This document shows, piece by piece, positions 4,499 through 46,376 of a stretch of 64,000 bases of DNA. The notes below the pieces were generated by a model that saw nothing but the letters and a program-made list of their open reading frames with translations, searched no databases and was not told the origin of the DNA. Position 1 is the first letter of the stretch; each line of letters starts with the position of its first letter. Origin of the DNA: a virus; the IMG/VR virus record IMGVR_UViG_3300022756_000004, positions 3,215-67,214 of that record. One strand, given 5' to 3'. The position numbers and the translations under genes are program-made.

Positions 4499-5375
4499 GG
4501 AGAACTGGCTTGTCCGCTTCCTCAGGGTTCAGAAGGCATCTGACGCCCAAGTTGCCGCAGTGCTACAGGCTGCATTAGAGGACCTTGACAAGCACCTCAG
4601 CCGCATTGACGCTGCGCCGGGTGTAGGTGCCGCTGTGCGGCGTGCTCAACTGCTGGGCAACCGTGGGGCCATCACGATGGTGCTCTCATCGCTGTACAAG
4701 AAGCTCGGAGATGTAGTTCGAGAGGGCCAGGCGAATGCGGCACAGGCGGCCACGGAGGCCGAGTTTCATTCTGCATCTAAGATCTATGATCGCATCATTG
4801 AAGATCCGGCTAAGCGGGAAGTCCTCAAGCGATCGTTGGAACAGACCTCTCGACGTAATATTCAAGTCACGGTAACGAGGATGACCGACTCTCAGCAGCC
4901 GCTGAGTAAGCGGTTATATAGGTCTGAAGCCCTATCTAAAGGCCAAGTTAGCCGAGTCGTAAATAGCCATCTCGCTAAGGGATCGTCTGCGGCAGACATG
5001 GCGAAGGATCTAAGGTCGTTCTTCAACCCCAAAGTGCCCGGTGGAGTGAGCTTTAGAGCTCAAACCTTGGCTCGAAGCGAAATAAATAATGCGTTTCATG
5101 CGCAAGCTGCGGCTGATATGGCCGATCGACCTTGGGTGAATCAGTCCAGATGGCATCTTTCCGGCTCGCACAAAGTTCCCGACGAGTGCAATACCTACGC
5201 CTCGATCGGGTTATTTCCGGTAGATCGTATTCCCAAGAAGCCTCATCCGAATTGCTTGTGCTATATCACTCCCGATCTTCCGGATGTTCAGACAGTGATC
5301 AACGATTATCTGGCTGGGAAATACAATTCGTGGCTCGCCGAACACACAGATGATGGGCTCCGCCGGTCCGCATGA
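4473..5375 (+). CDS. MuF-like minor head protein
   Basis: TLARSEINNAFH and C...PHPNCLC motifs; located between portal and scaffold. Confidence 0.8.
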   Translation: MASQSLSDKENWLVRFLRVQKASDAQVAAVLQAALEDLDKHLSRIDAAPGVGAAVRRAQLLGNRGAITMVLSSLYKKLGDVVREGQANAAQAATEAEFHSASKIYDRIIEDPAKREVLKRSLEQTSRRNIQVTVTRMTDSQQPLSKRLYRSEALSKGQVSRVVNSHLAKGSSAADMAKDLRSFFNPKVPGGVSFRAQTLARSEINNAFHAQAAADMADRPWVNQSRWHLSGSHKVPDECNTYASIGLFPVDRIPKKPHPNCLCYITPDLPDVQTVINDYLAGKYNSWLAEHTDDGLRRSA

Positions 5376-5427
5376 GGTAGTATGTCGGCAGGCTTCAAGC
5401 ATACCGACGAACCGGAGGTTCTCCGAA

Positions 5428-6177
5428 ATGAGCAAGAGCTCCCTTCCCCGACTGGATCTTTTTCTGCTGCCGTTCCGTGGCGGAAACAACGATGGCTCTG
5501 CGGGAGATGATGGCAACGAATCGTCAAAGGGTGCCGTCGATAAGGTGGCGGACAAGGATGATGACGATGATGGCGACGAAGATCACGATGATGATGATCT
5601 GTCTGGCATCGCAGATCCACGAGATCGCCAGATCGCGGCACTGAGCAGGGAAGCGGCACGGCATCGCCGCGAGAAGAACAAGAACAAGAAGGAAGCGGAG
5701 CGCATTCAGGGAGAGCTGGATGCCCTGAAGAACGGCAAGGGAACCGAGCAGGAGCAGTGGGAAGCTGAGAAGAGGTCGTTCGAGCAGAAGTACGAAGAGC
5801 TGCTCACGAACACTTCCAACACAGTCCTTCGAAACGCGGTGAGGGATCCCGACAATAAGTACTCGTGGTACGATGTACCGGTGGTAATGAGCTTGGTCAA
5901 TCGCGACGTAATCGAGATCGATCTCGAAGAAGGCGTCGTGGACGGCTTGGAGGCCGAACTGAAGCGCATTGCCAAAGAGAAGCCGTATCTCGTGAAGAAG
6001 GCTCCTGCTGGTGGCGGGAACTCCAATAACGGGAACAACGGAAATGGATCGGTATCCGGCAGCGCCGGATCTGCGGGTAGCACAGGAAGCAATCCGTCCG
6101 GTCGGAATAGCTCCAACGACGCAAAAGCGGCCCAGAGGGCGACACTCGAAAGTAAGTATCCGGGGCTTAGTGTATAG
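5428..6177 (+). CDS. Capsid scaffolding protein
   Basis: GGAGG RBS, ATG 5428. Acidic N-region, coiled coil (LSREAARHR), KPYL and C-terminal KYPGL; upstream of capsid. Confidence 0.8.
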   Translation: MSKSSLPRLDLFLLPFRGGNNDGSAGDDGNESSKGAVDKVADKDDDDDGDEDHDDDDLSGIADPRDRQIAALSREAARHRREKNKNKKEAERIQGELDALKNGKGTEQEQWEAEKRSFEQKYEELLTNTSNTVLRNAVRDPDNKYSWYDVPVVMSLVNRDVIEIDLEEGVVDGLEAELKRIAKEKPYLVKKAPAGGGNSNNGNNGNGSVSGSAGSAGSTGSNPSGRNSSNDAKAAQRATLESKYPGLSV

Positions 6178-6204
6178 CTCTGGAACAATCCAAGGAAGGT
6201 AATC

Positions 6205-6603
6205 GTGGCTCGTTACGATAAGTACGACCCGATGGTGGGCGGTTTCCGCGCGCCCCTTGCCGCTGACTGGCTGCTCGCTGATGTGAATCGACCCCGTGGG
6301 GTCGGTCTCAATTCCAGTGGCCAGATCGTCAAGGGAGCTGGCAACACCGGCATCGTGGGCATTCTGATTCTCACTAAGATCCGCAAGGCTGGTGAGATCG
6401 TGGACACCATGGACGCGGGCGAGATTGTGGAATGGGATCCCGTTACTGCGGGTACGTTCGGCACGGCGGGAACTACTTATTACGCCGATGCGACTACGGG
6501 TGTCATCAATTCCACTTCGGCCACTGGCAAGTTCCAGGTTGGCCGGACGGCTGAAGGCACTCGTCTTGTCTGCCGCGTGAACCGGACGGCGGTGCCCGCA
6601 TGA
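6205..6603 (+). CDS. Capsid decoration/minor capsid protein
   Basis: 132 aa G/T-rich, between scaffold and major capsid, ATGA-coupled. Confidence 0.7.
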   Translation: MARYDKYDPMVGGFRAPLAADWLLADVNRPRGVGLNSSGQIVKGAGNTGIVGILILTKIRKAGEIVDTMDAGEIVEWDPVTAGTFGTAGTTYYADATTGVINSTSATGKFQVGRTAEGTRLVCRVNRTAVPA

Positions 6604-11222: not shown

Positions 11223-11888
11223 ATGACCGCCGTTATTGTGGGATCTGCGCAAATTGCAGGAAACGGTACGTCTCTGACGTGCAACAAACCGACGGATACG
11301 GCTGATGGCGATCTTATGATCGCATTTCAGTTTGATGATTATGGAACTTATGCTGCGATGACGGCTCCGGCTGGATGGGCGGCGATCACTGGGCTGGATC
11401 GAGGATCCAATCTTCTGCATTTTAAGTCGTGGAGTAAGGTCGCCGCCAGTGAAGGGGCTAGCTATATATTCCAACAAGGATCTGGGAATCCAGATGGAGT
11501 TTTGCTGATTGTAACCATTCGTGGTGCGATCAATACTTCTGGTACTTGGATCTGGTCGACTCCGGTGTGGACGGCCACCGGAACTCCGAGAGTCACACCT
11601 ACTGTCGCTGGAATACTTCCCGGCGGGATATTGCTGTGCAGTGCATCCGCAGACATGAACAATGTCACCGCTGCCTGGACTGCCCCCTCTGACATGGTGA
11701 GTCTCGGGGCTCCGCAATCCACTACATATGGAACCATGTGCGTCGCAGGAATGGCCTCAGCTGCCAATCCATCTGGAACTAAATCTTTCGCAGTAACAGG
11801 AGCTCAGTTCGGCACCAGTGGCGGAATTGAGTGGGCTATTGGACTTCAACCTTTAGTTTCTGCCGGACAATTCATGGGCCTATTTTAA
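11223..11888 (+). CDS. Minor virion protein paired with fibre
   Basis: ATG directly after the fibre stop. P..TADGDLMIA...TAPAGW motif. Confidence 0.7.
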   Translation: MTAVIVGSAQIAGNGTSLTCNKPTDTADGDLMIAFQFDDYGTYAAMTAPAGWAAITGLDRGSNLLHFKSWSKVAASEGASYIFQQGSGNPDGVLLIVTIRGAINTSGTWIWSTPVWTATGTPRVTPTVAGILPGGILLCSASADMNNVTAAWTAPSDMVSLGAPQSTTYGTMCVAGMASAANPSGTKSFAVTGAQFGTSGGIEWAIGLQPLVSAGQFMGLF

Positions 11889-26445: not shown

Positions 26446-27216
26446 ATGAGCTTCCGACAGGCTTATGGAAACGACTGGTCTGAGAATAGCTGGCGGATGT
26501 GCAACAGAGACGAATGCGCATTGCCGATTTCTCCTGACATGACATTCGTTGATACTGCACCAATTCGAAAAGGCGAGCCGCTGACTATCCTGTCAGCCTG
26601 GCTCAAGTACTACGACGACAATATCGATCCGGTCAGCAGTCCGGTATGGGGCTGGTCTGCCGACAATGATGTAGAGACCAGCAACCATCTATCCGGTACT
26701 GCGCTGGACATCAACGCGCCGAAGTACCCATGGGGTTCGCGGGTTATGCCTCGTGATCGCATCGCGAAGGTTCGGAAGGGGCTGGATCTTTTCGAAGGTA
26801 CGATCTTCTGGGGTGCGGACTGGGATCGCGCCGACGAGATGCACTTCCAGATGAACTTCGAAGAGGGCGACAAGCGCAACGATGCGTTTGCTGCGAAGCT
26901 CAATGGGGGATATCTGGGAATTTATGGTGGTGGGGGAAACAAGACAGGAGCAACCTCCGTGTGGAATGAGCAGATCAAGAACTTCCTCGGCAACATGGTC
27001 AGCTATGGAACCATCATGTTCCATCTGGACCGCAAGTTGGAAGACGTTCGGCATCAGACCGTGGACGGCTGGCCTCAGCTGGGCAAGAACGAGAAGGGTC
27101 CTCTGACTCTGATCGACAATCAGGCAGCCCAGAATGCCAAGCTGGACGCTATCTCCGCCAAGCTGGACGAGCTTCTGGCTCTCCAGAAGCAGCAGCTGAA
27201 TCCCAAGTCGGTGTGA
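26446..27216 (+). CDS. Endolysin (lysin A), M15-type Zn peptidase
   Basis: GAAAGGAGG RBS. SNHLSGTALD...WGADW...DEMHFQ; C-terminal GWPQLG motif. Confidence 0.88.
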   Translation: MSFRQAYGNDWSENSWRMCNRDECALPISPDMTFVDTAPIRKGEPLTILSAWLKYYDDNIDPVSSPVWGWSADNDVETSNHLSGTALDINAPKYPWGSRVMPRDRIAKVRKGLDLFEGTIFWGADWDRADEMHFQMNFEEGDKRNDAFAAKLNGGYLGIYGGGGNKTGATSVWNEQIKNFLGNMVSYGTIMFHLDRKLEDVRHQTVDGWPQLGKNEKGPLTLIDNQAAQNAKLDAISAKLDELLALQKQQLNPKSV

Positions 27217-27217
27217 A

Positions 27218-27505
27218 GTGACCGCGCCGAATGATCCGCTCTGGGCGGTCAAGGAACTGATTCAGAGTCAGCCTTGGTACAAGCGATTCTCCAACACGAT
27301 TACGGCGAGCGTTGGATCTTTGGTCGGCCTTCTCTGGCTGGCCGTCTCATTCGGGGTGGATGTTCCAGACGATGTGTCCAAGTGGGTCTTTGTAGTGATC
27401 GGGATTCTGACGGCTCTGGGAATTCTCAAGACCCCGAATGGAATGACGGAAACTCAGCTGAAGGAAATCCAGGAAGTCACTGCCGGTCGGCATCGCAAGC
27501 TCTGA
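27218..27505 (+). CDS. Holin
   Basis: Two hydrophobic helices, basic C-terminus, directly after lysin. Confidence 0.75.
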   Translation: MTAPNDPLWAVKELIQSQPWYKRFSNTITASVGSLVGLLWLAVSFGVDVPDDVSKWVFVVIGILTALGILKTPNGMTETQLKEIQEVTAGRHRKL

Positions 27506-27526
27506 CCGGTCTATCTAGGATGTGAT

Positions 27527-27844
27527 GTGCTCCGTTGGCTAGCTCAAACTTCACCCGACCCCACTGGAGGCGTGCTGCTCCAGTATGGGGCAATCGGGGC
27601 GATTTTGGTGCTTGCGGTTTGGGCCGTTTACTATCTCTATCGGAGACAGGAACGCCAACATGATCAAGAACGAGATTCATGGCGACTAATGTTTCAAGAG
27701 GAGCGTCAGCGTGGCGACCGCCTCGAGGAGAGACTACTTGGACTCCATGGAGAGATCGGCAACAAGTTCGCCGGAGCGCTGGCGGAGTCCACCGCCTCGA
27801 TGCGAGAATGGTCCGAGACAATGAAAAATCGAGGCGATCGATGA
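27527..27844 (+). CDS. Membrane protein of lysis cassette
   Basis: LLQYGAIGAILVLAVWAVYYL transmembrane segment plus coiled coil. Confidence 0.7.
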   Translation: MLRWLAQTSPDPTGGVLLQYGAIGAILVLAVWAVYYLYRRQERQHDQERDSWRLMFQEERQRGDRLEERLLGLHGEIGNKFAGALAESTASMREWSETMKNRGDR

Positions 27845-28032
27845 TGGTCGATGCGGAGCACAGTTCTGGGGCTGGCTCGGGTGCGGCGCGCAGGGATCCA
27901 GACCAGATCATGAAGGAGTCCAGAGTCCTCCTCGCTCAGCTGATGGCTGGCTTTGACGAGTTGGAGAAGGTGATCGTAGAGACACGGCAGGACGCTCGCC
28001 GGGAGCGCGGCTCTAATAGATGGGGTCGATGA
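27841..28032 (+). CDS. Small hypothetical protein
   Basis: ATGA coupling with neighbours. Confidence 0.55.
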   Translation: MMVDAEHSSGAGSGAARRDPDQIMKESRVLLAQLMAGFDELEKVIVETRQDARRERGSNRWGR

Positions 28033-28196
28033 TGGGGTTCTGGCCTTTGAGTTCTCGTAGGCGCAATGCGGCGCTTGCCGAGGAAAAGAAGTATGCCGAG
28101 ATGCAGCACAAGATTGACGATCTTCGTGCGATGGTGACCTTGCTGGAGTCCAATTTCAAAGAGATTGAGAATCGTCGAAAGAAGGATGTTGTATGA
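28032..28196 (+). CDS. 54-aa coiled-coil protein (not in ORF track)
   Basis: MGFWPLSSRRRN...KKDVV, coupled on both sides. Confidence 0.6.
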   Translation: MGFWPLSSRRRNAALAEEKKYAEMQHKIDDLRAMVTLLESNFKEIENRRKKDVV

Positions 28197-28612
28197 GCCC
28201 GGAAGAGGCGAAGCTACAGGAGGCTATCGAAGCAGTTGGTAAGTTGGGCGCTTCGGTGGATGAACTTGCTCAACGAGCCAATGTCAACCGGGACAACATC
28301 AAGAGAGGAGAGGTAAGAGATCGCTGGTTGGCTGCTAGCGTTGCCCTGGACATTATCCTTTCGCTTGCTTTGATATTCGCTGGATATTTCATTGATAGCA
28401 ATCAGAACGAGATCGGCAAGATCCAGCAGAGCCAACAAGAACTCACGGAAGTAAATCGTAGCAATCAATGCGCGATGGTGAACATGTTTCTTTCTTATTC
28501 CACAACGGTTCAGAGATCTACTACTCTGACGGAGGAAGAGAAGAATCAGCGGCTTCAGGCATACGCGGTCATCCAAAAGATCCACGATGATCTGAAGTGC
28601 GCTAACGAGTAG
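28193..28612 (+). CDS. Membrane protein of lysis cassette
   Basis: One transmembrane segment (WLAASVALDIILSLALIFAGYF) and two Cys in the C-domain. Confidence 0.7.
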   Translation: MSPEEAKLQEAIEAVGKLGASVDELAQRANVNRDNIKRGEVRDRWLAASVALDIILSLALIFAGYFIDSNQNEIGKIQQSQQELTEVNRSNQCAMVNMFLSYSTTVQRSTTLTEEEKNQRLQAYAVIQKIHDDLKCANE

Positions 28613-28838
28613 GGTTCTATCCCTCCCTAAGAAGAACCCCCTTCAGAATCAGCGCCTGCTCGTAGGGCTATGCGTCCGGGGTTCGTTCCCTCCCTCTATT
28701 AGAACCCCCTTCATTTTTCTGTGCGAGGGGGTTCGTTCGTATATGCGGGGTTCATTCCCTCCCTATTAAGAACCCCCTTCAATTTCGGCGCGCTCGTACG
28801 CGGGGTTCGATCCCTCCTATTAAAGAACCCTCCCTTCA
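28612..28838. repeat. Four degenerate 34-36-bp hairpin repeats
   Basis: GGGTTCnnTCCCTCC..TAwwAGAACCC(T)CC(C)TTCA at 28612, 28679, 28748 and 28803. Confidence 0.85.
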
Positions 28839-29078
28839 AAGATCAAGATCTGCGCGCTCGCAGGGCTGCGTGTTAAAACCTTTCGTATTGCTGCGTGTTT
28901 GCTCCGCGCGCGCCCACTGTTCTCCGCGCTCGCGCGCGCCCGTTCCCCTATACCCTTACGGGGCGGGTACGGGGTGGCCAAAAGGCCCCCTACCAGGCAA
29001 GTTAGGCAAAATCCCGGCTTGTACGTAATGTTTTGGGCAGCACCACAACCCACCACAACCACAGCAAGGGGCAAGGCA

Positions 29079-29408
29079 ATGGCAACCACACACAGCGGCA
29101 GCGGGCAACGCAAGGTCCGGGTAACGGCTCCCAGCGGGGGCTCTGCCCGCAAGGGCAACCGCTACACCATGGGCACGGGTCTGTCCCAAGCAACGCAAGC
29201 CCTTTGGGCTACCCCTAGCCCTTACCAGGTCCCCGGCAACCCCTTTGCCCCCGGCATACCCAGCTTGGCCACACGCAACAAAATTGCGGACAGGGCTATG
29301 GCTGGATTGGGCTCCACGGCACCCGCCAAGGGTGGGCACTGGGGCAAGGTCTGTCCGGCCTGCGGCTTGCAGCGTAGCCGTACCAACCTTTGCGGCTGCA
29401 ACTCCTAA
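29079..29408 (+). CDS. Early protein with C-terminal CxxC...CxC Zn ribbon
   Basis: AAGGGG RBS. VCPACGLQRSRTNLCGCNS; no Glu, one Asp. Confidence 0.7.
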   Translation: MATTHSGSGQRKVRVTAPSGGSARKGNRYTMGTGLSQATQALWATPSPYQVPGNPFAPGIPSLATRNKIADRAMAGLGSTAPAKGGHWGKVCPACGLQRSRTNLCGCNS

Positions 29409-29412
29409 GCAC

Positions 29413-29462
29413 GCCGGTAGTGTGTGGGGCACCCTACGGGGTTCCCCGCGCAGTGCTTACGC
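29413..29462 (+). repeat. Intergenic hairpin element copy 1
   Basis: GCCGGTAG-stem-loop-GTGCTTACGC, also at 29794-29845. Confidence 0.7.
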
Positions 29463-29510
29463 GCTACGTGGTCCAATCCTGGCCACACCCTTGCCCTTAC
29501 AGGGCAAGGT

Positions 29511-29536
29511 TCCACCACAGTTAGGGTACAATCATG
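29511..29536 (+). repeat. Start-associated repeat copy 1
   Basis: TCCACCACAGTTAGGGTACAATCATG, 25/26 identical to 29851-29876; both end in the start codon. Confidence 0.85.
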
Positions 29537-29794
29537 CCTTCGCTTCGCAAGCGGCTGGCGTACGGGGTTCTCAGCGCTATCGCTGCCCCCGCCGCTGGTC
29601 TCCTCGTCACCTGGCTCAGGGGTCTCCCCTGGTATCGCATCGGTCAGCTCCTGCGGCACGGTCCGGCTACGCCGTGGCAGCGCCGTACGGTTCGCCGCCT
29701 CAGCAATGGGCTTCAGCCCGGCGGTGTCTACGCGCCCTGGTGGGGTACCTACCCCGATGCTCAGCGCGAGATCTCTCGCCTTCGCAACCGGTAG
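29534..29794 (+). CDS. Early basic membrane-associated protein
   Basis: Starts within the start-associated repeat; hydrophobic N-terminus. Confidence 0.7.
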   Translation: MPSLRKRLAYGVLSAIAAPAAGLLVTWLRGLPWYRIGQLLRHGPATPWQRRTVRRLSNGLQPGGVYAPWWGTYPDAQREISRLRNR

Positions 29795-29876
29795 CCGGTA
29801 GCGCATGGTGCACCCCTCGCGGGGTGCTCCGTGCGGTGCTTACGCACCAATCCACCACAGTTAGGGTCCAATCATG
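29794..29876 (+). repeat. Intergenic hairpin element copy 2 plus start-associated repeat copy 2
   Basis: Matches 29413-29462 and 29511-29536. Confidence 0.75.
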
Positions 29877-30257
29877 GGAGACCTGTCTCAACTCCGCATG
29901 GGCATGTGCAACGACTATGGCCTCTGGGAGTACTACACGCATACCTACGAGCCCGCCGAGAAGATTCCTGAGGATCATCCTCTGGATGGCCTGCTGTCCG
30001 AGTTGGGCGAGGTCCCCGGCGGGTACTACGCGCAGAACTGCGAGAATTGCGGGGTTCAGCCCTACGATGTCCGCATCTACGGCACCTACAACTACGAGGA
30101 CCGGGAGTGCACTCAGCCCGTAGGAGACAGCGCCCTGTCTTACTGCGAGCCCTGCCTGGTCCAGCAGATCATCGGTACCTACCGCTCCCAGGTATGGCAC
30201 GACGATGTTCAGATCTGCTGGTACGTGGCGGAGGCTAAGCCTCACCCGTACGTCTAA
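29874..30257 (+). CDS. Early acidic protein with two CxxC motifs
   Basis: CENC and CEPC; starts within the repeat. Confidence 0.75.
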   Translation: MGDLSQLRMGMCNDYGLWEYYTHTYEPAEKIPEDHPLDGLLSELGEVPGGYYAQNCENCGVQPYDVRIYGTYNYEDRECTQPVGDSALSYCEPCLVQQIIGTYRSQVWHDDVQICWYVAEAKPHPYV

Positions 30258-30313
30258 GCCCTGGTGGAGTGATCTGACCTTACGGTCACTCCACCAGTCA
30301 CCACCTCCGTACC

Positions 30314-30341
30314 TTGCGATTTGCGCTGGGTATGGTACAGT
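30314..30341 (+). promoter_or_regulatory. SigA-like promoter with extended -10
   Basis: TTGCGA-16-TACAGT with GGGTATGG upstream of the -10. Confidence 0.65.
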
Positions 30342-30386
30342 TCAATCTGTACCGGGCGGCACCGGTACACGACGAGAGGAAATACC

Positions 30387-30860
30387 ATGACCACTTCCGA
30401 GAAGTCCAACATGGACCTCGAATTGGAGCGTATGCTCGCGGGTGACATCGTCGACGAGTCCGACAAGGACTGGACGTATCTCCTGGACAAATCTCCGCAG
30501 TCCAACCACCAGCTCTTCGCCAAGATCATGCGCGAGAAGCTGGGCAACGAGGCCGTGGACAATGCGTCTCCGGAGCAGATGATCTACTGGCTCCTCGCCA
30601 TGCACCGCTGGATGCAGAAGACCCAGGCCAACCGCGACCGTACCGAGTTCCACGGGCGCACGGTGGGCTCGGTCCTGAAAGGCTCCGCCACCTTGGCGGA
30701 GCGGCTGGCTCCGCGTGACCAGGACGAGGTCCTGGTGACCCCGGTCCCGCTGGCCATCGGCGAGCCGGTCAAGCCCAAGCGGGCGGCTCGCAAGCCGCGC
30801 ACTCCGCGCGCTAAGGTCCAGGCTCCCAAGGTGGATGCGCCCGAGGCCATCTCCGCGTGA
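30387..30860 (+). CDS. Hypothetical protein, paralog of 39949-40404
   Basis: GAGAGGA RBS; K/P/A-rich tail. Confidence 0.8.
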   Translation: MTTSEKSNMDLELERMLAGDIVDESDKDWTYLLDKSPQSNHQLFAKIMREKLGNEAVDNASPEQMIYWLLAMHRWMQKTQANRDRTEFHGRTVGSVLKGSATLAERLAPRDQDEVLVTPVPLAIGEPVKPKRAARKPRTPRAKVQAPKVDAPEAISA

Positions 30861-31093
30861 TCCAAGAAAGGATTCTTGCCGGGGCTCTAGGTCTACGACC
30901 TAGGGTCTCGGGAGGGAGACCTCACATTTCCCCCTGTGGTGGAGGGTGAATACCCTCCCCGGCTGATCATTGGCGATTAGGTCGGGGAGGGGTTTGACTT
31001 CCCACCCGCGAGCTGGACAGCGAAGTCCCTTGGCGAACAGCGTAGTTCGTAGCCGCCCCCTAACTCAAAAGGCGAAACACAGAAAGGACGAGA

Positions 31094-31345
31094 ATGGCGT
31101 TCCCCTGCAAGGCGAAGAACCTCAAGCCCAACGACGAGATCAACTTGGGCAAGACCCGATGGATCCACTCTGAAGACGGACCCCGACCTCCGGTCACTGG
31201 CTGGGCGGTGGTCATGGGCATCTCGCGCAACGAAGGAAACGAGCGCGATGGTAAGCTAGACATCGGCGTGAAGTTCGGCGAGGACGAGTACATTCGGTTC
31301 TCCGTGGACCACGACCAGTACTTCCAGACGAAGCGGGAGAAGTGA
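31094..31345 (+). CDS. Hypothetical protein
   Basis: GAAAGGA RBS. Confidence 0.7.
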   Translation: MAFPCKAKNLKPNDEINLGKTRWIHSEDGPRPPVTGWAVVMGISRNEGNERDGKLDIGVKFGEDEYIRFSVDHDQYFQTKREK

Positions 31346-31421
31346 TGGACTTCGAGGCAATGACTCCGGAGGAGTTCGAAGCATACTTCGGCATGGCAGA
31401 TTTCCGGGGGAAGCTGTGAAC

Positions 31422-31835
31422 ATGGCAGAGCTCAAGGACGTCGAGTTCAAGGACCAGCATATGCTCGTGAGGCACGCGATCCGAGCGTGGCTTCCGGCCA
31501 TCAACAAGGAGTCCAATCCCCGGCTGATGAATGCCTCCCTCACGGGAGACTACCTCTGGAACGAGGAGCATCAGCATGGCTGGGTCGGAGTCTGCCTGGA
31601 CTGGCACGGCACGGCCGAGGTCCATCAGGTTCTCATAGAAGGCGGCGAGATCGTGGCCGCTTTGCCCATGGAAGAATGCTCCGGGGACTATCAGGAGTAC
31701 GTGTTCATGCGCGTCTTCGGAGAGCTGGCGGAGTTTGACGCCATGACGAAGTCAACAGATCCGATCGCGATGTACGGTCTCCGCCAAGCGGCTGATTTGG
31801 AAGCGATTCACGGATATTACGAGGAGAACAACTAA
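31422..31835 (+). CDS. Hypothetical protein
   Basis: Codon usage, coupled to next gene. Confidence 0.7.
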   Translation: MAELKDVEFKDQHMLVRHAIRAWLPAINKESNPRLMNASLTGDYLWNEEHQHGWVGVCLDWHGTAEVHQVLIEGGEIVAALPMEECSGDYQEYVFMRVFGELAEFDAMTKSTDPIAMYGLRQAADLEAIHGYYEENN

Positions 31836-39813: not shown

Positions 39814-39948
39814 GGAGATTGTCCAAATAAAAGGCAAACAAAGTTTGCAAAAGTTGCCCGACATGGGCTGTCAATGGTGTAGGCTGTACTAAGGCAGCAA
39901 GCGCCGAGCGTGAACGAATGGCCGAGAGGCCCCTACTAAAGGAACGAA

Positions 39949-40404
39949 ATGGCACCGTCAACCAAGGATCAGCTCCAGGCTCTCACGGCCGAAGACATCA
40001 AGCCCACCGAGGCGCACGTCTCCCTCGCGAACTTCCTGACCGAGTTCGGTCCGGTCGAGGTCACCGCCGATCAGGCGTGGGCATTCATCATGGGGCATCG
40101 CATCTGGCAGTCCTCGGAAGAGCGCAAGGTGGAGAAGGACAACCTCAAGGGCTCGAAGGCGGAAGAGGCCGAGATCAAGAAGGCCGAGCGCGAGTTGGCC
40201 CGCGCCGAGAAGAAGGCTGCGGCCGAGAAGACCGCCGAAGAGCGCGAAGCCAAGAAGGCTGCGAAGGCTGCGAAGGACGCGGACAGCGACGACGACCTGG
40301 CCGAGACCTCGGACGAGGAGGGTCTCGAGGACGGCGAAGACGTCGTGGAAGAGGCCAAGCCGAAGCGGCGTCGGCGCAACGTTCCCGCTGCCGGGGAGTT
40401 CTAA
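39949..40404 (+). CDS. Highly charged protein, paralog of 30387-30860
   Basis: AAAGGA RBS, strong codon bias, K/A/E-rich then acidic tail. Confidence 0.85.
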   Translation: MAPSTKDQLQALTAEDIKPTEAHVSLANFLTEFGPVEVTADQAWAFIMGHRIWQSSEERKVEKDNLKGSKAEEAEIKKAERELARAEKKAAAEKTAEEREAKKAAKAAKDADSDDDLAETSDEEGLEDGEDVVEEAKPKRRRRNVPAAGEF

Positions 40405-40614
40405 GACCACCCCCTCCCTAACCCCTCGCGGGGACAGTAGCAGCCAGGCTTGTAAACCGGGTGAGGCGCTGAAAGGGTGGCCGGGTCCAGGATTCAAGGG
40501 GTTGACTCCTGGGCTGCGGTGGAGATTGGATCAATCTGCGGCCCGGTGCGAGTCCGGTTTGAAAAGACAGCGCTAAGACAATGATCCAATCTCCTCCGGA
40601 GGTACCGGTTAAGA

Positions 40615-43030: not shown

Positions 43031-43903
43031 ATGCCCGTTGTCAAGTTCGGAAATCATGTCAGCAATGCTGCGACCGCAGCGGACGAGGTCGCCGATGGCG
43101 GCTACAGCGGTCCCATTCCCACCGAGCGGGGGATCTACCCCTGCTACGTCAAGATCTTCGATCTGGTGACCAACAGCAAGGGCGACCCGATGCTCAAGGG
43201 TCTCGCGGTCATCGATGTCCCGAAGAAGCACAAGTTCGCCAAGTTCAACGGCTACGGCATCTGGTTCCAGCAGAACATCACGGATCAGGGCAAGCCGTTC
43301 GTGAACCAGCTCCTCAACGCGCTCTCGGACGGCTCCGCGGAACACGCCGCGAAGATCCGCAAGGCGTTCTGGACCACGGGTGCTCAGACTGAGAAGGCGC
43401 TGCCGTCCAAGCCCAGTCAGTCAGCGGGGGCAATCCTCAAGATCGGGCCGCTGCGCTTCATGGATCTGGACGACAAGAAGCTCCGCATCCTCATCGCGGG
43501 CAAGCCGGAGACCTACAAGGACGAGCCGAAGCTGTCCGCCGGTAAGTACGTCATGAAGCAGAACGACGAAGTCAACTCGGACGACGATGACGAGGATGAC
43601 GACGACGAGATCGATACCGGCTCGGATGTTCTCGATGACGACGAGGATCTCGAGGACGACGAAGACGACGATGAGGATGACGACTTCGACGAGGACGAGG
43701 ATTCGGACGACGAAGATGAGGACGAGGACGACGACGAGGACGAAGTCGACACCGAAGACGACGACCTGGACGACGAGGACGAGGATTCGGACGACGAAGA
43801 TGAGGACGAGGACGACGAGCCCGCTGCGCCCGTGACGCCGATCAAGAAGGCTTCGGCGAAGAAGACCACCGGCGCGAAGAAGCGCGGAGAGCCTGCGTTC
43901 TGA
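43031..43903 (+). CDS. Putative ssDNA-binding protein with very long acidic tail
   Basis: Follows the exonuclease and ATPase; GIY...K.....NSKGDPML N-terminus, D/E tract, C-terminal PAF. Confidence 0.7.
   Translation: MPVVKFGNHVSNAATAADEVADGGYSGPIPTERGIYPCYVKIFDLVTNSKGDPMLKGLAVIDVPKKHKFAKFNGYGIWFQQNITDQGKPFVNQLLNALSDGSAEHAAKIRKAFWTTGAQTEKALPSKPSQSAGAILKIGPLRFMDLDDKKLRILIAGKPETYKDEPKLSAGKYVMKQNDEVNSDDDDEDDDDEIDTGSDVLDDDEDLEDDEDDDEDDDFDEDEDSDDEDEDEDDDEDEVDTEDDDLDDEDEDSDDEDEDEDDEPAAPVTPIKKASAKKTTGAKKRGEPAF
43687..43818 (+). repeat. 48-bp perfect direct repeat in acidic tail
   Basis: 43687-43734 equals 43771-43818. Confidence 0.85.
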
Positions 43904-45040: not shown

Positions 45041-45894
45041 AAGTAGCCATTCTGGGATGTGGCCCGACCGGTTTGTTGGCGGCGCACGCCTGCGCGATGA
45101 ACGCAGTGGACTTCACCATCTTGTCCAAGCGTCGTAAGTCCTTCCTATTCGGTAGCCAATATCTGCACGAGCCCATCCCCGGGATCAGTGACTTCGACCG
45201 AAAGGTTGAGATCACGTATCGCACGGATGGCTCCCCCGCAGAGTATCGGCGCAAGGTTCACGGTCCCGCCTGGGATGGCGTCATCCTCCCCGAGGATTTC
45301 GAACAGCACGATCAGGCGTGGGATATCCGGTTCGCATACGATCGGCTCTGGGCCGAGTACGGCCGGATGGTGCAAGAGTTCGAGATCCCGATGAAGCCGG
45401 AAGGCAACAACAACGCGGGACACTGGAACATCCCGGCAGCCATCTCGCGCGGCAAGTTGCACGAATACGATCTGGTGGTGTCCACCGTTCCCCGAACGTA
45501 TTGGAAGATGCCGGGGGATCAGTTCATTCATTCCAGCGGATGGGTTCTGGGGGATGCGCCGGAGCACGGCCAGTTCTGCCCGTTCACCACTCCTCAGGAC
45601 AACATGATCATCTGCAACGGGGAGGCCGAGCCCAGCTGGACCCGACTGAGCCGTGTCTTCGACTACACGACCGTGGAATGGCCTGGCGGAACGAAGCCGC
45701 CCATTCCCGGAATCTCGGAGATCATCAAGCCGTTGCGGTTCGAGGCAGGCCCCATCCCTCCTCCCCCGAACTGGATGTTCGTCGGAAGGTACGGAAAGTG
45801 GCACAAAGGCGTTCTAGTGACGGATGCTTTCAACGAGGTCCTGCAAGCCACCGGGACCAAGCCCGAGTGGATCTACAAGAAAGAGGCGCAATGA
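45037..45894 (+). CDS. FAD/NAD(P)-dependent oxidoreductase
   Basis: KVAILGCGPTGLLAA Rossmann motif, G.QYLH, VSTVP, C-terminal VGRYGKW (UDP-galactopyranose-mutase-like architecture). Confidence 0.8.
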   Translation: MKVAILGCGPTGLLAAHACAMNAVDFTILSKRRKSFLFGSQYLHEPIPGISDFDRKVEITYRTDGSPAEYRRKVHGPAWDGVILPEDFEQHDQAWDIRFAYDRLWAEYGRMVQEFEIPMKPEGNNNAGHWNIPAAISRGKLHEYDLVVSTVPRTYWKMPGDQFIHSSGWVLGDAPEHGQFCPFTTPQDNMIICNGEAEPSWTRLSRVFDYTTVEWPGGTKPPIPGISEIIKPLRFEAGPIPPPPNWMFVGRYGKWHKGVLVTDAFNEVLQATGTKPEWIYKKEAQ

Positions 45895-46376
45895 GTTCGG
45901 ATTCGGTATTTTGCAGCGTAGATTTGCTTTTTCATCCGGAAACCAAGCAGGCAGAGCGTATCCTCAACGAGATTCTCCCTGGAGTAATCGAGCTCTTCCT
46001 GGCCAAAAACAAGGATTACAAGATCGAGGGGATCGACATCGCTGCCACGCTCGGCGTACGCGGGCAGTGGTCGGACATGTTTCGGAAGATCGCCAAGCTC
46101 AAGCAGGAGATGTGGGACCAGGACGGTTCTGGCCTCCAATTTGAGACCGCCGAAGAAGTGATCAAGGACCTTATCGGACACTGCCTGCTGTCCCTGCTGT
46201 TCCTCAAGGACGCGAAGCCGAAGACCGTAAAGCTTTCCGAGGGATTCCTCCAGACCACCGGAGGATATCCCGGAGGATATCCCGTCGTCGGCGAGGCCAA
46301 TCCGACCAAAGGATTTGTTGAAGGTCGCCCTTTCGTGGGGACGGCTCGGAAGATCGTGGACAACCCGCAGGCATGA
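45891..46376 (+). CDS. Nmad1/DUF1599-like helical protein
   Basis: F..KNKDY.....G..G....M.RK..KL...DLIGH pattern. Confidence 0.65.
   Translation: MSSDSVFCSVDLLFHPETKQAERILNEILPGVIELFLAKNKDYKIEGIDIAATLGVRGQWSDMFRKIAKLKQEMWDQDGSGLQFETAEEVIKDLIGHCLLSLLFLKDAKPKTVKLSEGFLQTTGGYPGGYPVVGEANPTKGFVEGRPFVGTARKIVDNPQA

What the first reader, a model, noticed from the sequence alone, without database searches (positions are those of the whole stretch)
28849..29755. ~900-bp strand-specific GpA-free island at the start of the early region
Seen: on the + strand I find only two GA dinucleotides (about 29289 and 29305) in ~905 bp, whereas random expectation is roughly 1 in 16 positions and GA is very common elsewhere. 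There is no GATC between 28851 and 29769 and no TCGA between 28811 and ~30417. TC on the + strand persists, so the effect is largely one-stranded: the template strand lacks TpC. The constraint shapes function. The two proteins here are almost free of Asp/Glu (GAN codons), stops are TAA/TAG, and the ribosome-binding sites avoid GGAG (AAGGGG, TTAGGGT). Inference: this DNA must escape a sequence-specific process. Options are (a) first-injected DNA avoiding host restriction, ADP-ribosylation or deamination motifs, or (b) DNA that must stay free of a phage-made context-dependent base modification so host RNA polymerase can transcribe it first. Option (b) would tie it to the modification-like operon at 44.6-53.5 kb.
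Basis: partly seen in the sequence, partly recalled or inferred. Interest (0 to 1): 0.85.

Follow-up and report, generated by a model that had tools for sequence, protein, structure and literature searches.

The report
Phage early genes purged of GA
The first one or two early genes of this soil/sediment phage, with their leader and spacers, have been rewritten by selection so that their message strand almost never contains the two-letter step GA, most likely so that these messages survive something in the infected cell that attacks GA.

Summary
Window 28848-29877 (1030 nt) has 5 GA on the + strand; every other 1030-nt window has at least 52. It runs from a conserved motif at the late/early boundary to the start codon of the third early gene.

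It is not an amino-acid effect. Non-coding parts have 0 GA where 10.3 and 6.3 are expected. Codons before an A-starting codon end in G in 0 of 31 and 1 of 13 cases, against 29-42% in control genes.

The same desert lies in the same slot in 3 of 11 related whole genomes scanned. In Gordonia phage LittleFella it covers an unrelated gene.

The depletion is strand-specific: sense-strand TC is normal in LittleFella.

Best reading, confidence 0.45: an early message hardened against a GA-specific attack on mRNA. CmdT, which ADP-ribosylates GA in single-stranded RNA, is the only characterised precedent. The agent is unidentified.

This scan noted similar dinucleotide-purged early islands in other phages. 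My literature searches found none in print.

The parts
28612..28850 (+). Four palindromic 34-36-nt repeats (GGGGTTC...GAACCCC) that close the late/lysis operon. This is context and not part of the island. GA is present here at 3-4 per 100 nt.
   Evidence: Sequence. Conserved in the relative L017 at 81% identity. GA profile.
28861..28879 (+). Unique conserved motif CAGGGCTGCGTGTTAAAAC, which marks the 5' edge of the island. It is a candidate early promoter or regulatory site. Its function is not shown.
   Evidence: There is 1 match in the window at up to 3 mismatches. It is identical in L017. Close variants sit at the same place in LittleFella, Suzy, Terapin and LilyPad, and a 2-mismatch variant is present in Nocardia phage P3.1. 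The last upstream GA is at 28847.
28848..29877 (+). The GA-depleted island as a whole: 5 GA in 1030 nt on the + (sense) strand.
   Evidence: 51.5 GA expected from local composition and 87.7 from genome frequency. Every other 1030-nt window has at least 52 (mean 89.1, sd 13.0).
28880..29078 (+). Non-coding leader with 0 GA where 10.3 are expected. It is 81% identical to L017, which is more conserved than ORF1.
   Evidence: A frame-specific test of a 52-codon ORF inside it gave differences of 8/9/13 by codon position, so there is no coding signal. The RNA fold is no better than shuffles (z = +0.3).
29002..29031 (+). Possible SigA-type promoter TTAGGC-N18-TAATGT. Both hexamers are conserved in L017 while the spacer varies. 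This is an inference read by eye from the sequence and the alignment.
   Evidence: The consensus scan found no sigma-70-type site. If this were the only transcription start, about 190 nt of GA-free DNA would lie upstream of the message.
29079..29408 (+). ORF1: a 109-aa basic protein with 1 Asp and 0 Glu and a C-terminal CxxC...CxC zinc-knuckle-like end. Stop TAA. It holds 2 GA.
   Evidence: It is a real gene. Against L017, differences by codon position are 23/22/47, and 28 codon changes are synonymous. Homologues are P0001-P0003, with remote ones P0011-P0025. There is no PHROG hit and no Pfam hit above cut-off. The AlphaFold2 model is poor, mean pLDDT 53.
29409..29533 (+). Intergenic spacer 1: strong hairpins followed by the shared start-associated sequence CCACCACAGTTAGGGTACAATC. 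It has 0 GA where 6.3 are expected.
   Evidence: RNA fold -69.4 kcal/mol, z = -5.2, with 0 of 200 shuffles as good. 88% identical to L017. GA count.
29534..29794 (+). ORF2: an 86-aa protein with a hydrophobic helix and a basic region. It has 0 GA in the first 222 nt and 3 GA in the conserved C-terminal tail. Stop TAG.
   Evidence: Homologues P0005 and P0006 (71% identity) also have no Asp or Glu in the first 58 and 79 residues respectively.
29795..29873 (+). Intergenic spacer 2: hairpins and the same start-associated sequence. It is GA-free.
   Evidence: GA gap 29770-29878.
29874..30257 (+). ORF3: the first gene with normal GA content (7.3 per 100 nt, 15.7% Asp+Glu). It marks the 3' edge of the island.

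Best explanation
The island is an early expression cassette made of a leader, one or two small genes and their hairpin spacers. Selection has purged GA from its message strand, so that the mRNA offers almost no target to a GA-specific activity acting on single-stranded RNA in the infected cell.

While ordinary messages are inactivated, these can still be translated. Their small, fast-evolving, orphan products are probably counter-defence or host-takeover proteins.

The only characterised activity with this exact specificity is the defence toxin CmdT. It ADP-ribosylates the adenine of GA in single-stranded RNA and stops translation. A GA-preferring endoribonuclease would leave the same footprint.

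Shown: the purge, its strand specificity, its independence from protein composition, its persistence through sequence divergence, and its recurrence on an unrelated gene in the same slot.

For: (1) Size of the effect. There are 5 GA in 1030 nt, against at least 52 in any other window of that length.

(2) The signal is at nucleotide level, not at protein or codon level. Leader: 0 GA against 10.3 expected. Spacer: 0 against 6.3. Resampling synonymous codons gives 13.7 expected GA at codon phases 2-3 and 3-1 for ORF1, 7.9 for ORF2 (first 222 nt), 13.8 for LittleFella gp37 and 15.1 for L017 ORF1. Observed values are 1, 0, 0 and 2, and 0 of 5000 resamples were as low in each case. Codons before an A-starting codon end in G in 0/31, 1/13, 0/32 and 1/30 cases, against 6/19, 12/38, 72/250 and 76/180 in controls. 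GGA makes up 1/16, 0/9, 0/8 and 0/14 Gly codons, against 23/84 and 12/50.

(3) Strand specificity. GA observed/expected is 0.04, 0.12 and 0.03 in the three islands. Sense-strand TC is 0.77, 0.53 and 1.18.

(4) Persistence. ORF1 of the window and of L017 differ at 47 of 106 third codon positions, and the leaders are only 81% identical, yet both stay purged.

(5) Convergence. LittleFella has the desert (475 + 178 nt) at the same slot, over gp37, which is unrelated to ORF1 (hhalign probability 0.12%).

(6) The purge follows the genes, not the site. Suzy, Terapin and LilyPad keep the motif but lack these genes, and the DNA after their motif has normal GA.

(7) The edges coincide with expression features: the motif on the 5' side and the start of the next gene on the 3' side, in all 3 genomes.

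(8) Ribosome-binding sites are GA-free, unlike those of 45 of 48 other genes. The CmdT paper points out that Shine-Dalgarno sequences nearly always contain GA.

(9) Residual GA sit at conserved acidic residues: D in ...IADRA..., D in gp37 ...QQADN..., and the ORF2 tail. Remote ORF1 homologues range from 0 to 11% Asp+Glu, with D>N and E>Q at aligned columns. This is what minimising targets under protein constraint would give.

(10) CmdT's specificity is GA in ssRNA. It does not modify dsRNA and modifies ssDNA only weakly (PMC11618068, passages read).
Against: No GA-specific effector has been shown or looked for in the hosts of these phages. The window comes from a sediment metagenome and its host is only inferred from relatives that infect Gordonia, Nocardia and Mycobacterium.

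CmdTAC was characterised in E. coli and is triggered by the capsid protein. That timing fits an antidote made under fire, but it is not an obvious threat to early genes.

The transcription start is unknown. A promoter-like site at 29002-29031 would leave about 190 nt of GA-free DNA outside the message unless a second start lies at the motif. The consensus scan found neither promoter nor terminator.

A template-strand DNA reading predicts the same pattern and cannot be excluded by sequence.

The phage encodes no recognisable ADP-ribose-removing domain: Macro and NADAR each 0 of 1 genome.

The functions of ORF1, ORF2 and gp37 are unknown.

Only three island-bearing genomes could be read as DNA, and two of them are close kin.
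Confidence: 0.45

Rival explanations
1. This is a DNA-level reading. The template (-) strand is kept free of TC because a dinucleotide-specific DNA-damaging activity would corrupt or block transcription of these first genes. Candidates are a TC-specific cytosine deaminase of the DddA or APOBEC kind, or another base-modifying toxin. Damage on the non-template strand would not matter for immediate expression.
For: It predicts the same strand asymmetry and the same edges as the RNA reading. It would also explain GA-free DNA upstream of a late transcription start without needing a second promoter. TC on the sense strand is also low in the window (0.77) and in L017 (0.53), as if both strands mattered somewhat. 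The TC preference of such deaminases is recalled, not checked in any call.
Against: LittleFella shows no sense-strand TC depletion (1.18). The rest of the genome would still be damaged. During transcription the non-template strand is the exposed one, and it keeps its TC. Four-letter DarT motifs (TNTC and TTTW, recalled) cannot explain loss of GA in every context. No such enzyme is known for these hosts.
Confidence: 0.17
2. The phage modifies its own DNA in a GA/TC context, using the ThyX, oxidoreductase and MazG genes at 44.6-53.5 kb. The island stays unmodified on the template strand so that host RNA polymerase can read it first.
For: A long ThyX-like gene (Pfam Thy1, 7.2e-29), a MazG-like pyrophosphatase and an FAD-binding-like protein flank DnaE. 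Phage DpdA enzymes with a strict GA motif exist (iggy, PMC10484667, abstract seen in the listing). Other notes of this scan propose this reading for phages that do carry thymine-modification genes.
Against: The ThyX-like gene is in 5 of 5 relatives, 3 of which have no island. There is no TGT/DpdA, and no modifying transferase was recognised in the 20 proteins scanned in that region. The island's duplex keeps 45 GA steps on the other strand. All downstream early genes have normal GA and TC and must still be transcribed by the same polymerase. Two unrelated proteins would have to serve the same unlocking role.
Confidence: 0.08
3. The sequence must avoid GA for an intrinsic RNA reason rather than because of an attack. 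Examples are keeping the message free of Shine-Dalgarno-like sites (GGAG, GAGG, AGGA), or free of sites for a host RNA-binding regulator or a housekeeping RNase that prefers G|A, as RNase Y does in Bacillus.
For: All strong Shine-Dalgarno cores contain GA. RNase Y sites are enriched for GA (PMC11780869, passages read). The LittleFella leader is highly structured and pairs its ribosome-binding site (z = -8.4), which suggests translational control.
Against: GA is missing in every context, not only in GGA or GAG. The RNase Y motif is weak: 63% of sites lack it. That Actinobacteria lack RNase Y is recalled, not tested here. No other gene in the genome shows the trait.
Confidence: 0.1
4. The island is first-entering DNA purged of restriction sites.
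For: No GATC or TCGA for about 0.9-1.6 kb. GATC is otherwise very frequent, with 565 copies in the window.
Against: The island is mid-genome. The relative Terapin is circularly permuted. Only one strand is purged. Only 16 of 64 palindromic hexamers and 2 of 16 tetramers contain GA. Restriction anywhere else in the genome would still kill the phage.
Confidence: 0.03
5. The pattern is a by-product. Either acid-free basic proteins are what is selected, or tRNAs that read GAN and NGA codons are depleted by an anticodon nuclease, or the stretch is a relic of G>A hypermutation.
For: The proteins have 0.8-2.8% Asp+Glu. AA is enriched in the island (observed/expected 1.55).
Against: Non-coding parts and cross-codon GA are purged as strongly. 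The island is A-poor (17% A) and GC-rich, the opposite of what hypermutation gives. E>Q needs a G>C change. The purge persists through about 28% nucleotide divergence in ORF1.
Confidence: 0.03

Closest known systems
CmdTAC defence: CmdT ADP-ribosylates N6 of adenine in GA dinucleotides of single-stranded RNA (PMC11618068; passages read)
   Same: The specificity is the same: GA, on single-stranded RNA and therefore on one strand, including Shine-Dalgarno sequences. The consequence is a block of translation. A message without GA would be immune.
   Different: CmdTAC was studied in E. coli against T-even phages. No CmdT-like gene was sought or shown in the hosts of these phages. The passages I read describe escape by a phage protein (Alt.-3 variants), not by recoding. 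Activation is by the capsid protein.
ACA-less mRNAs in the MazF single-protein-production system (PMC9102682 and PMC3542334; abstracts seen in the listing)
   Same: A message recoded to lack a toxin's RNA motif stays translatable while all other messages are destroyed.
   Different: That system is engineered, uses a trinucleotide and works by RNA cleavage. Here the purge is natural, concerns a dinucleotide, and is deep enough to remove Asp and Glu from the proteins.
Restriction-site and short-palindrome avoidance in phage genomes (recalled, not checked in a call)
   Same: Selection removes the sequence that a host weapon recognises.
   Different: Classical avoidance is genome-wide, symmetric on both strands and concerns 4-6-nt sites. 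This one is local (1 kb), one-stranded and concerns a dinucleotide.
GA-motif 7-deazaguanine DNA modification by phage DpdA (iggy, PMC10484667; CAjan, PMC7544227; title and abstract start seen)
   Same: The dinucleotide GA is the recognition unit.
   Different: That is a double-stranded DNA modification that needs a TGT-family DpdA. None is encoded here, and the island's other strand keeps its GA.
Dinucleotide-purged early-gene islands noted by this scan in other phages (e1-5337002, e1-6110429, e1-5878424: sense TC/CC; e1-5344246, e1-5952764, e1-6143071, e1-6096534: GA/TC)
   Same: About 0.5-1.3 kb islands over first-expressed small genes, at nucleotide level, conserved among relatives.
   Different: They are in other phage lineages and some concern other dinucleotides. 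Several involve both strands or phages that carry thymine-modification genes. They are unchecked AI notes and I did not re-test them.

Membership tests
Target-site avoidance of a GA-specific ssRNA effector (CmdT-like) | The depleted unit is the dinucleotide GA in all sequence contexts. | tested here: met
   GA observed/expected is 0.04, 0.12 and 0.03 in three islands. No other dinucleotide falls below 0.53.
Target-site avoidance of a GA-specific ssRNA effector (CmdT-like) | Depletion is on the sense (RNA) strand only. | tested here: met
   Sense-strand TC (GA on the other strand) is 0.77, 0.53 and 1.18. It is fully normal in LittleFella and partly low in the window lineage.
Target-site avoidance of a GA-specific ssRNA effector (CmdT-like) | The whole depleted stretch is transcribed as one message. 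| not testable with these tools
   No RNA run holds the stretch. The promoter scan found nothing. A promoter-like site at 29002-29031 would leave about 190 nt outside the message.
Target-site avoidance of a GA-specific ssRNA effector (CmdT-like) | The host encodes a GA-specific RNA-modifying or RNA-cleaving effector. | not tested
   The host is unknown and no model accession for CmdT was at hand. [quoted passage not shown]
Self-modification avoidance (DpdA / 7-deazaguanine at GA) | The phage encodes a TGT-family DpdA transglycosylase. | tested here: not met
   PF01702: 0 of 1 genome, while the control matched in 14 of 14 genomes.
Self-modification avoidance (ThyX-linked pyrimidine modification) | The island co-occurs with the modification genes. 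| tested here: not met
   The ThyX-like gene is in 5 of 5 relatives. Only 2 of those 5 have an island.
Self-modification avoidance (any double-strand GA/TC mark) | The island is free of the motif on both strands. | tested here: not met
   There are 45 TC on the + strand of 28849-29755, and 56 in the LittleFella island.
Restriction-site avoidance of first-entering DNA | The stretch lies at a fixed genome end that enters first. | tested here: not met
   The island is mid-genome. Terapin is listed as circularly permuted. The own genome assembles with a 13-nt overlap. The ends of this phage itself have not been mapped.

The most novel reading that the evidence does not exclude
Phages of several lineages keep 'hardened' first messages: counter-defence genes recoded to lack the exact dinucleotide that a host mRNA-modifying or mRNA-cleaving effector reads. 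A dinucleotide desert would then be a genomic footprint of that effector's specificity. Here it would predict a so far undescribed GA-specific mRNA-targeting defence, CmdT-like or a new RNase, in Gordonia and related Mycobacteriales. It would also mark ORF1, ORF2 and gp37 as its antidotes.
Probability: 0.35. Interest if true: 0.9.

Novelty: new variant of a known kind. Interest (0 to 1): 0.8.

Why it matters
If the reading holds, it describes a counter-defence written into the nucleotide sequence itself rather than carried by a protein inhibitor. Immunity to a dinucleotide-specific attack is bought at the price of proteins without Asp or Glu.

It would give a purely computational way to do two things: find the most urgent early genes of unknown phages, and read off the sequence specificity of unknown host effectors.

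It is directly testable, because LittleFella and its host Gordonia terrae 3612 are in culture.

It also warns annotators. GA-free DNA has no TGA stops and yields long spurious ORFs in several frames.

Tried and rejected
DNA similarity of 27500-31500 to isolated phages found no match. tblastn of ORF3, gp37, P0012 and P0015 against isolated phages found nothing beyond self.

The motif scan of IMG/VR gave 10 stretches. Only 3 come from kin (Terapin, Suzy and the 68,928-nt contig). The other 7 are chance matches in unrelated contigs and show no GA desert.

More island-bearing DNA was sought with ORF1, with the downstream early gene, with gp37 and with the P0012 subfamily, in IMG/VR, metagenome and genome collections. 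Only the one 68,928-nt contig turned up, under the ids L017, L018, L023 and G001.

Contigs of four soil metagenome runs were laid on 28200-30900. Relatives about 90% identical cover the island, but the table of differences was cut (265 rows not shown). I could therefore not count GA-creating changes. No RNA holder is listed.

Rfam gave 0 matches. The sigma-70 and terminator scan found 0 sites.

For ORF1, the AlphaFold2 model had mean pLDDT 53, so I ran no fold search. The ESM Atlas gave nothing at 0.9 or above. Pfam gave only Zn_ribbon_NUD at E = 0.018, below its cut-off. PHROGs gave none for ORF1, ORF2 or ORF3.

In the own genome, Macro, NADAR and cutinase each gave 0 of 1.

The control gene 30384-30857 also fell below the resampling null (13 observed against 23 expected, P = 0.0004). 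The null therefore overestimates cross-codon GA by roughly 1.4-fold. This does not change the result for the island genes.

A 52-codon ORF inside the leader was rejected as coding.

Hypermutation, tRNA-level and protein-composition readings were rejected (see the rival explanations).

Literature searches for GA-free or dinucleotide-free phage genes returned nothing relevant in their listings. Supplementary files were not opened. The taxonomic table of CmdTAC homologues (Extended Data and supplements of PMC11618068) could bear on whether Actinobacteria carry it.
Full report
WHAT THE WINDOW IS

The window is 64 kb of a 67,214-nt phage genome whose ends overlap by 13 nt. All genes lie on the + strand. 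It comes from a freshwater-sediment metagenome, and relatives occur in soil metagenomes.

By DnaE-type polymerase, the nearest isolated phages are:
- Gordonia phages of the genus Terapinvirus: LittleFella at 66% amino-acid identity, and LilyPad, Suzy, Madi and Terapin at 62-64%
- Nocardia phage P3.1
- Mycobacterium phages of the PBI1 type

Terapin is listed as circularly permuted and lacks integrase and repressor (PMC5559632, table and passages).

The finding lies at the boundary between two blocks. Upstream is the late block: tail genes, an endolysin at 26446-27216 and small membrane-protein-like genes. Downstream is the early/replication block, which includes an SNF2 helicase, a PD-(D/E)XK nuclease, Sak4, DnaE, a ThyX-like gene and a primase-polymerase.

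THE OBSERVATION

On the + strand, 28849-29755 holds 2 GA where 45 are expected from local composition. The lowest of 20,000 shuffles had 25. GA is otherwise the most over-represented purine step in the genome (observed/expected 1.22).

The two GA-free gaps measure 451 and 442 nt. The next longest in the whole genome is 119 nt, and no other dinucleotide has anything comparable.

After three clustered GA at 29756-29770, a further 108 nt are GA-free up to the start of ORF3. The natural unit is therefore 28848-29877: 5 GA in 1030 nt, when every other 1030-nt window has at least 52 (mean 89, sd 13).

- GATC and TCGA are absent as stated.
- The stops are TAA and TAG.
- The ribosome-binding sites contain no GA, while 45 of 48 other genes have GA within 20 nt of the start.

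NOT AN AMINO-ACID EFFECT

The non-coding leader (199 nt) has 0 GA against 10.3 expected. The spacer after ORF1 (125 nt) has 0 against 6.3.

I kept each protein and redrew synonymous codons from the genome's own usage. The table gives GA counts at codon phases 2-3 and 3-1.

| Gene | Expected GA | Observed GA |
|---|---|---|
| ORF1 | 13.7 | 1 |
| ORF2, first 222 nt | 7.9 | 0 |

None of 5000 resamples was as low as observed.

Direct codon counts point the same way:

| Measure | ORF1 | ORF2 | Control genes |
|---|---|---|---|
| Codons before an A-starting codon that end in G | 0 of 31 | 1 of 13 | 6/19, 12/38, 72/250, 76/180 |
| Gly codons that are GGA | 1 of 16 | 0 of 9 | 23/84 and 12/50 |
| Arg codons that are CGA or AGA | 0 of 8 | 0 of 13 | 26/81 and 11/40 |

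The cross-codon result also excludes a tRNA-level or codon-level cause.

One caveat: a control gene also fell below the resampling null (13 against 23). The null is therefore inflated by about 1.4-fold. This does not affect the conclusion.

The proteins are shaped by the ban. ORF1 has 1 acidic residue in 109 and ORF2 has 2 in 86, against 13% in the genome's long genes.

ORF1 IS A REAL GENE

Against its homologue in a 68,928-nt IMG/VR contig (L017, 67-68% amino-acid identity), differences fall 23/22/47 by codon position. Twenty-eight of 62 changed codons are synonymous.

RELATIVES

I scanned 11 whole genomes for gaps of all 16 dinucleotides. A GA desert stands out in 3:

| Genome | log10 expected number of such gaps |
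|---|---|
| Window genome | -13.6 and -13.3 |
| IMG/VR contig | -7.7 and -6.1 |
| LittleFella | -14.7 |

In the other 8 (Suzy, Terapin, LilyPad, P3.1, PBI1, Jalebi, Patos, Rumi) the most extreme gap of any dinucleotide reaches only -2.6 to -6.0, and none is a GA gap at this place.

In all three positive genomes the desert starts at the same unique motif, CAGGGCTRCGNNTTAAAAC, just after the lysis genes, and ends at the start of the next gene.

The IMG/VR contig shares the leader and ORF1 but not ORF2. Its island is 694 nt with 5 GA.

LittleFella's island (653 nt, 1 GA inside) has an unrelated AT-rich leader. It covers gp37, which is not homologous to ORF1 (hhalign probability 0.12%). gp37 has 1 acidic residue in 128 and 19.5% Asn+Gln.

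Suzy, Terapin and LilyPad keep the motif but have no gene there. The 0.5-1 kb of repeat-rich DNA after their motif has ordinary GA content.

The ban therefore goes with the expressed genes in this slot. It does not go with the site, and it does not go with descent of one gene.

PERSISTENCE AND PROTEIN-LEVEL TRACES

The window and L017 differ at 47 of 106 third codon positions in ORF1 and at 19% of leader positions, yet both remain purged.

A profile search found remote ORF1 relatives in metagenomes: 16 proteins at E <= 0.001, one of which (P0019) is repetitive and doubtful. Their Asp+Glu content runs from 0% (P0012, P0018, P0021) to 11%. At aligned columns the acid-poor members carry N or Q where others carry D or E.

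gp37 relatives have 1, 1, 1 and 6 acidic residues. ORF2 relatives have none in the first 58-79 residues and a few in a conserved tail.

The residual GA of the window lie at such conserved acidic residues, plus one GGA. This is the pattern expected if every GA carries a cost and is kept only where the protein needs it.

STRAND

GA observed/expected is 0.04, 0.12 and 0.03 in the three islands. TC on the same strand is 0.77, 0.53 and 1.18.

The duplex is thus not free of the GA:TC step. Whatever reads it distinguishes the strands, which points to RNA, to single-stranded DNA, or to the template role of one strand.

WHAT IT IS MOST LIKELY FOR

The only characterised activity with exactly this specificity is CmdT. 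It ADP-ribosylates N6 of adenine in GA of single-stranded RNA. It does not modify dsRNA, modifies ssDNA only weakly, and blocks translation. The authors note that Shine-Dalgarno sequences nearly always contain GA (PMC11618068, passages).

A message without GA would stay translatable after such a toxin is released. That is exactly when an antidote must still be made.

Other features fit a unit built to survive as RNA:
- Strong hairpins follow ORF1 (z = -5.2).
- The LittleFella leader is highly structured and pairs its ribosome-binding site (z = -8.4).

The slot also shows rapid gene turnover, as anti-defence loci do: ORF1+ORF2, ORF1 alone, gp37 or nothing. In soil relatives, 29643-30283 is replaced by other DNA.

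I put 0.45 on this RNA-target reading. The agent, whether CmdT-like or a GA-preferring RNase, is left open.

WEAK POINTS

- The transcription start is unknown. A promoter-like TTAGGC-N18-TAATGT at 29002-29031 has conserved hexamers and a variable spacer in L017. If it were the only start, about 190 nt of purged DNA would lie upstream of the message. The consensus scan found nothing.
- No GA-specific effector is known in the presumed hosts.
- A template-strand DNA reading predicts the same pattern: TC-specific damage on the strand that the polymerase reads.

Option (a), first-entering DNA escaping restriction, does not fit. The location is mid-genome in a lineage with permuted ends. The purge is one-stranded. 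Only 16 of 64 palindromic hexamers contain GA.

The ThyX-like gene is in 5 of 5 relatives tested, 3 of them without an island. No DpdA-type enzyme is encoded. The region holds DnaE, HNH endonucleases, a MazG-like protein, an FAD-binding-like protein and ThyX, but no recognisable transferase. In addition, Lee et al. state that the sequence motifs of thymidine hypermodification are not known (PMC5889632, passage).

NOVELTY

Four full-text searches returned no description of natural GA-free or dinucleotide-free phage genes in their listings.

Notes of this scan report similar islands in other phages, some with other dinucleotides. Those are unchecked AI notes, not independent support, but they suggest the phenomenon is general.

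The closest concepts in print are restriction-site avoidance and the engineered ACA-less messages used with MazF.

Noticed in passing
window 39937-40492: There are 465 nt without TA and an overlapping 318 nt without AT. They cover gene 39949-40404, whose product is 24.5% Asp+Glu. These are the second most extreme dinucleotide gaps in the genome (log10 expected -3.0 and -4.1).
   Followed up: no
whole window: GATC occurs 565 times and TCGA 339 times in 64 kb. From the base composition I estimate that GATC occurs at about twice the chance rate. TC (observed/expected 1.34) and GA (1.22) are the most over-represented steps.
   Followed up: no
L003 (Terapin) 5066-5900; L002 (Suzy) 6032-6500: After the same conserved motif, these phages have 0.5-0.9 kb of gene-free, repeat-rich DNA. 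It contains CTTTCGCGCC-type and GCGCATAATGCGC-type repeats, and in Suzy 193 nt without GG. A TTGYGW-N17-TAGCAT promoter-like site then sits about 90 nt before the first early gene. The region looks like an origin or a regulatory array.
   Followed up: partly
L001 (LittleFella) 11557-11775: The leader of gp37 folds as RNA far better than shuffles (-74.4 kcal/mol, z = -8.4). A long-range helix pairs the ribosome-binding site, which suggests a possible translational switch.
   Followed up: partly
window 29643-30283: In a 66,785-nt contig of a soil metagenome run, this stretch (the end of ORF2 plus ORF3) is replaced by 213 other letters. Other relatives skip 29165-30254 or 29683-30283. This is a gene-turnover hot spot just 3' of the island.
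   Followed up: no
window 28612-28850: Four palindromic repeats (GGGGTTC...GAACCCC) lie between the last late gene and the motif. They are conserved at 81% in the IMG/VR relative. No terminator-like T-run was scored.
   Followed up: partly
window 43031-43903: The product is 30% Asp+Glu. It matches phrog_9460, labelled methyltransferase, at 1.8e-30 but has no Pfam hit.
   Followed up: no
window 28820-29432, several frames and both strands: GA-free DNA has no TGA on the + strand, and the stretch is GC-rich. It therefore carries long spurious ORFs in several frames, for example 28899-29408, 28956-29432 (-) and 29245-30123. A simple GC3-based caller picked wrong frames there.
   Followed up: yes
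PBI1 record 45788-46075: There is a 287-nt stretch without CA, and overlapping stretches without GC and CC. At log10 expected -6.0 it is the strongest non-GA desert among the 11 genomes scanned.
   Followed up: no
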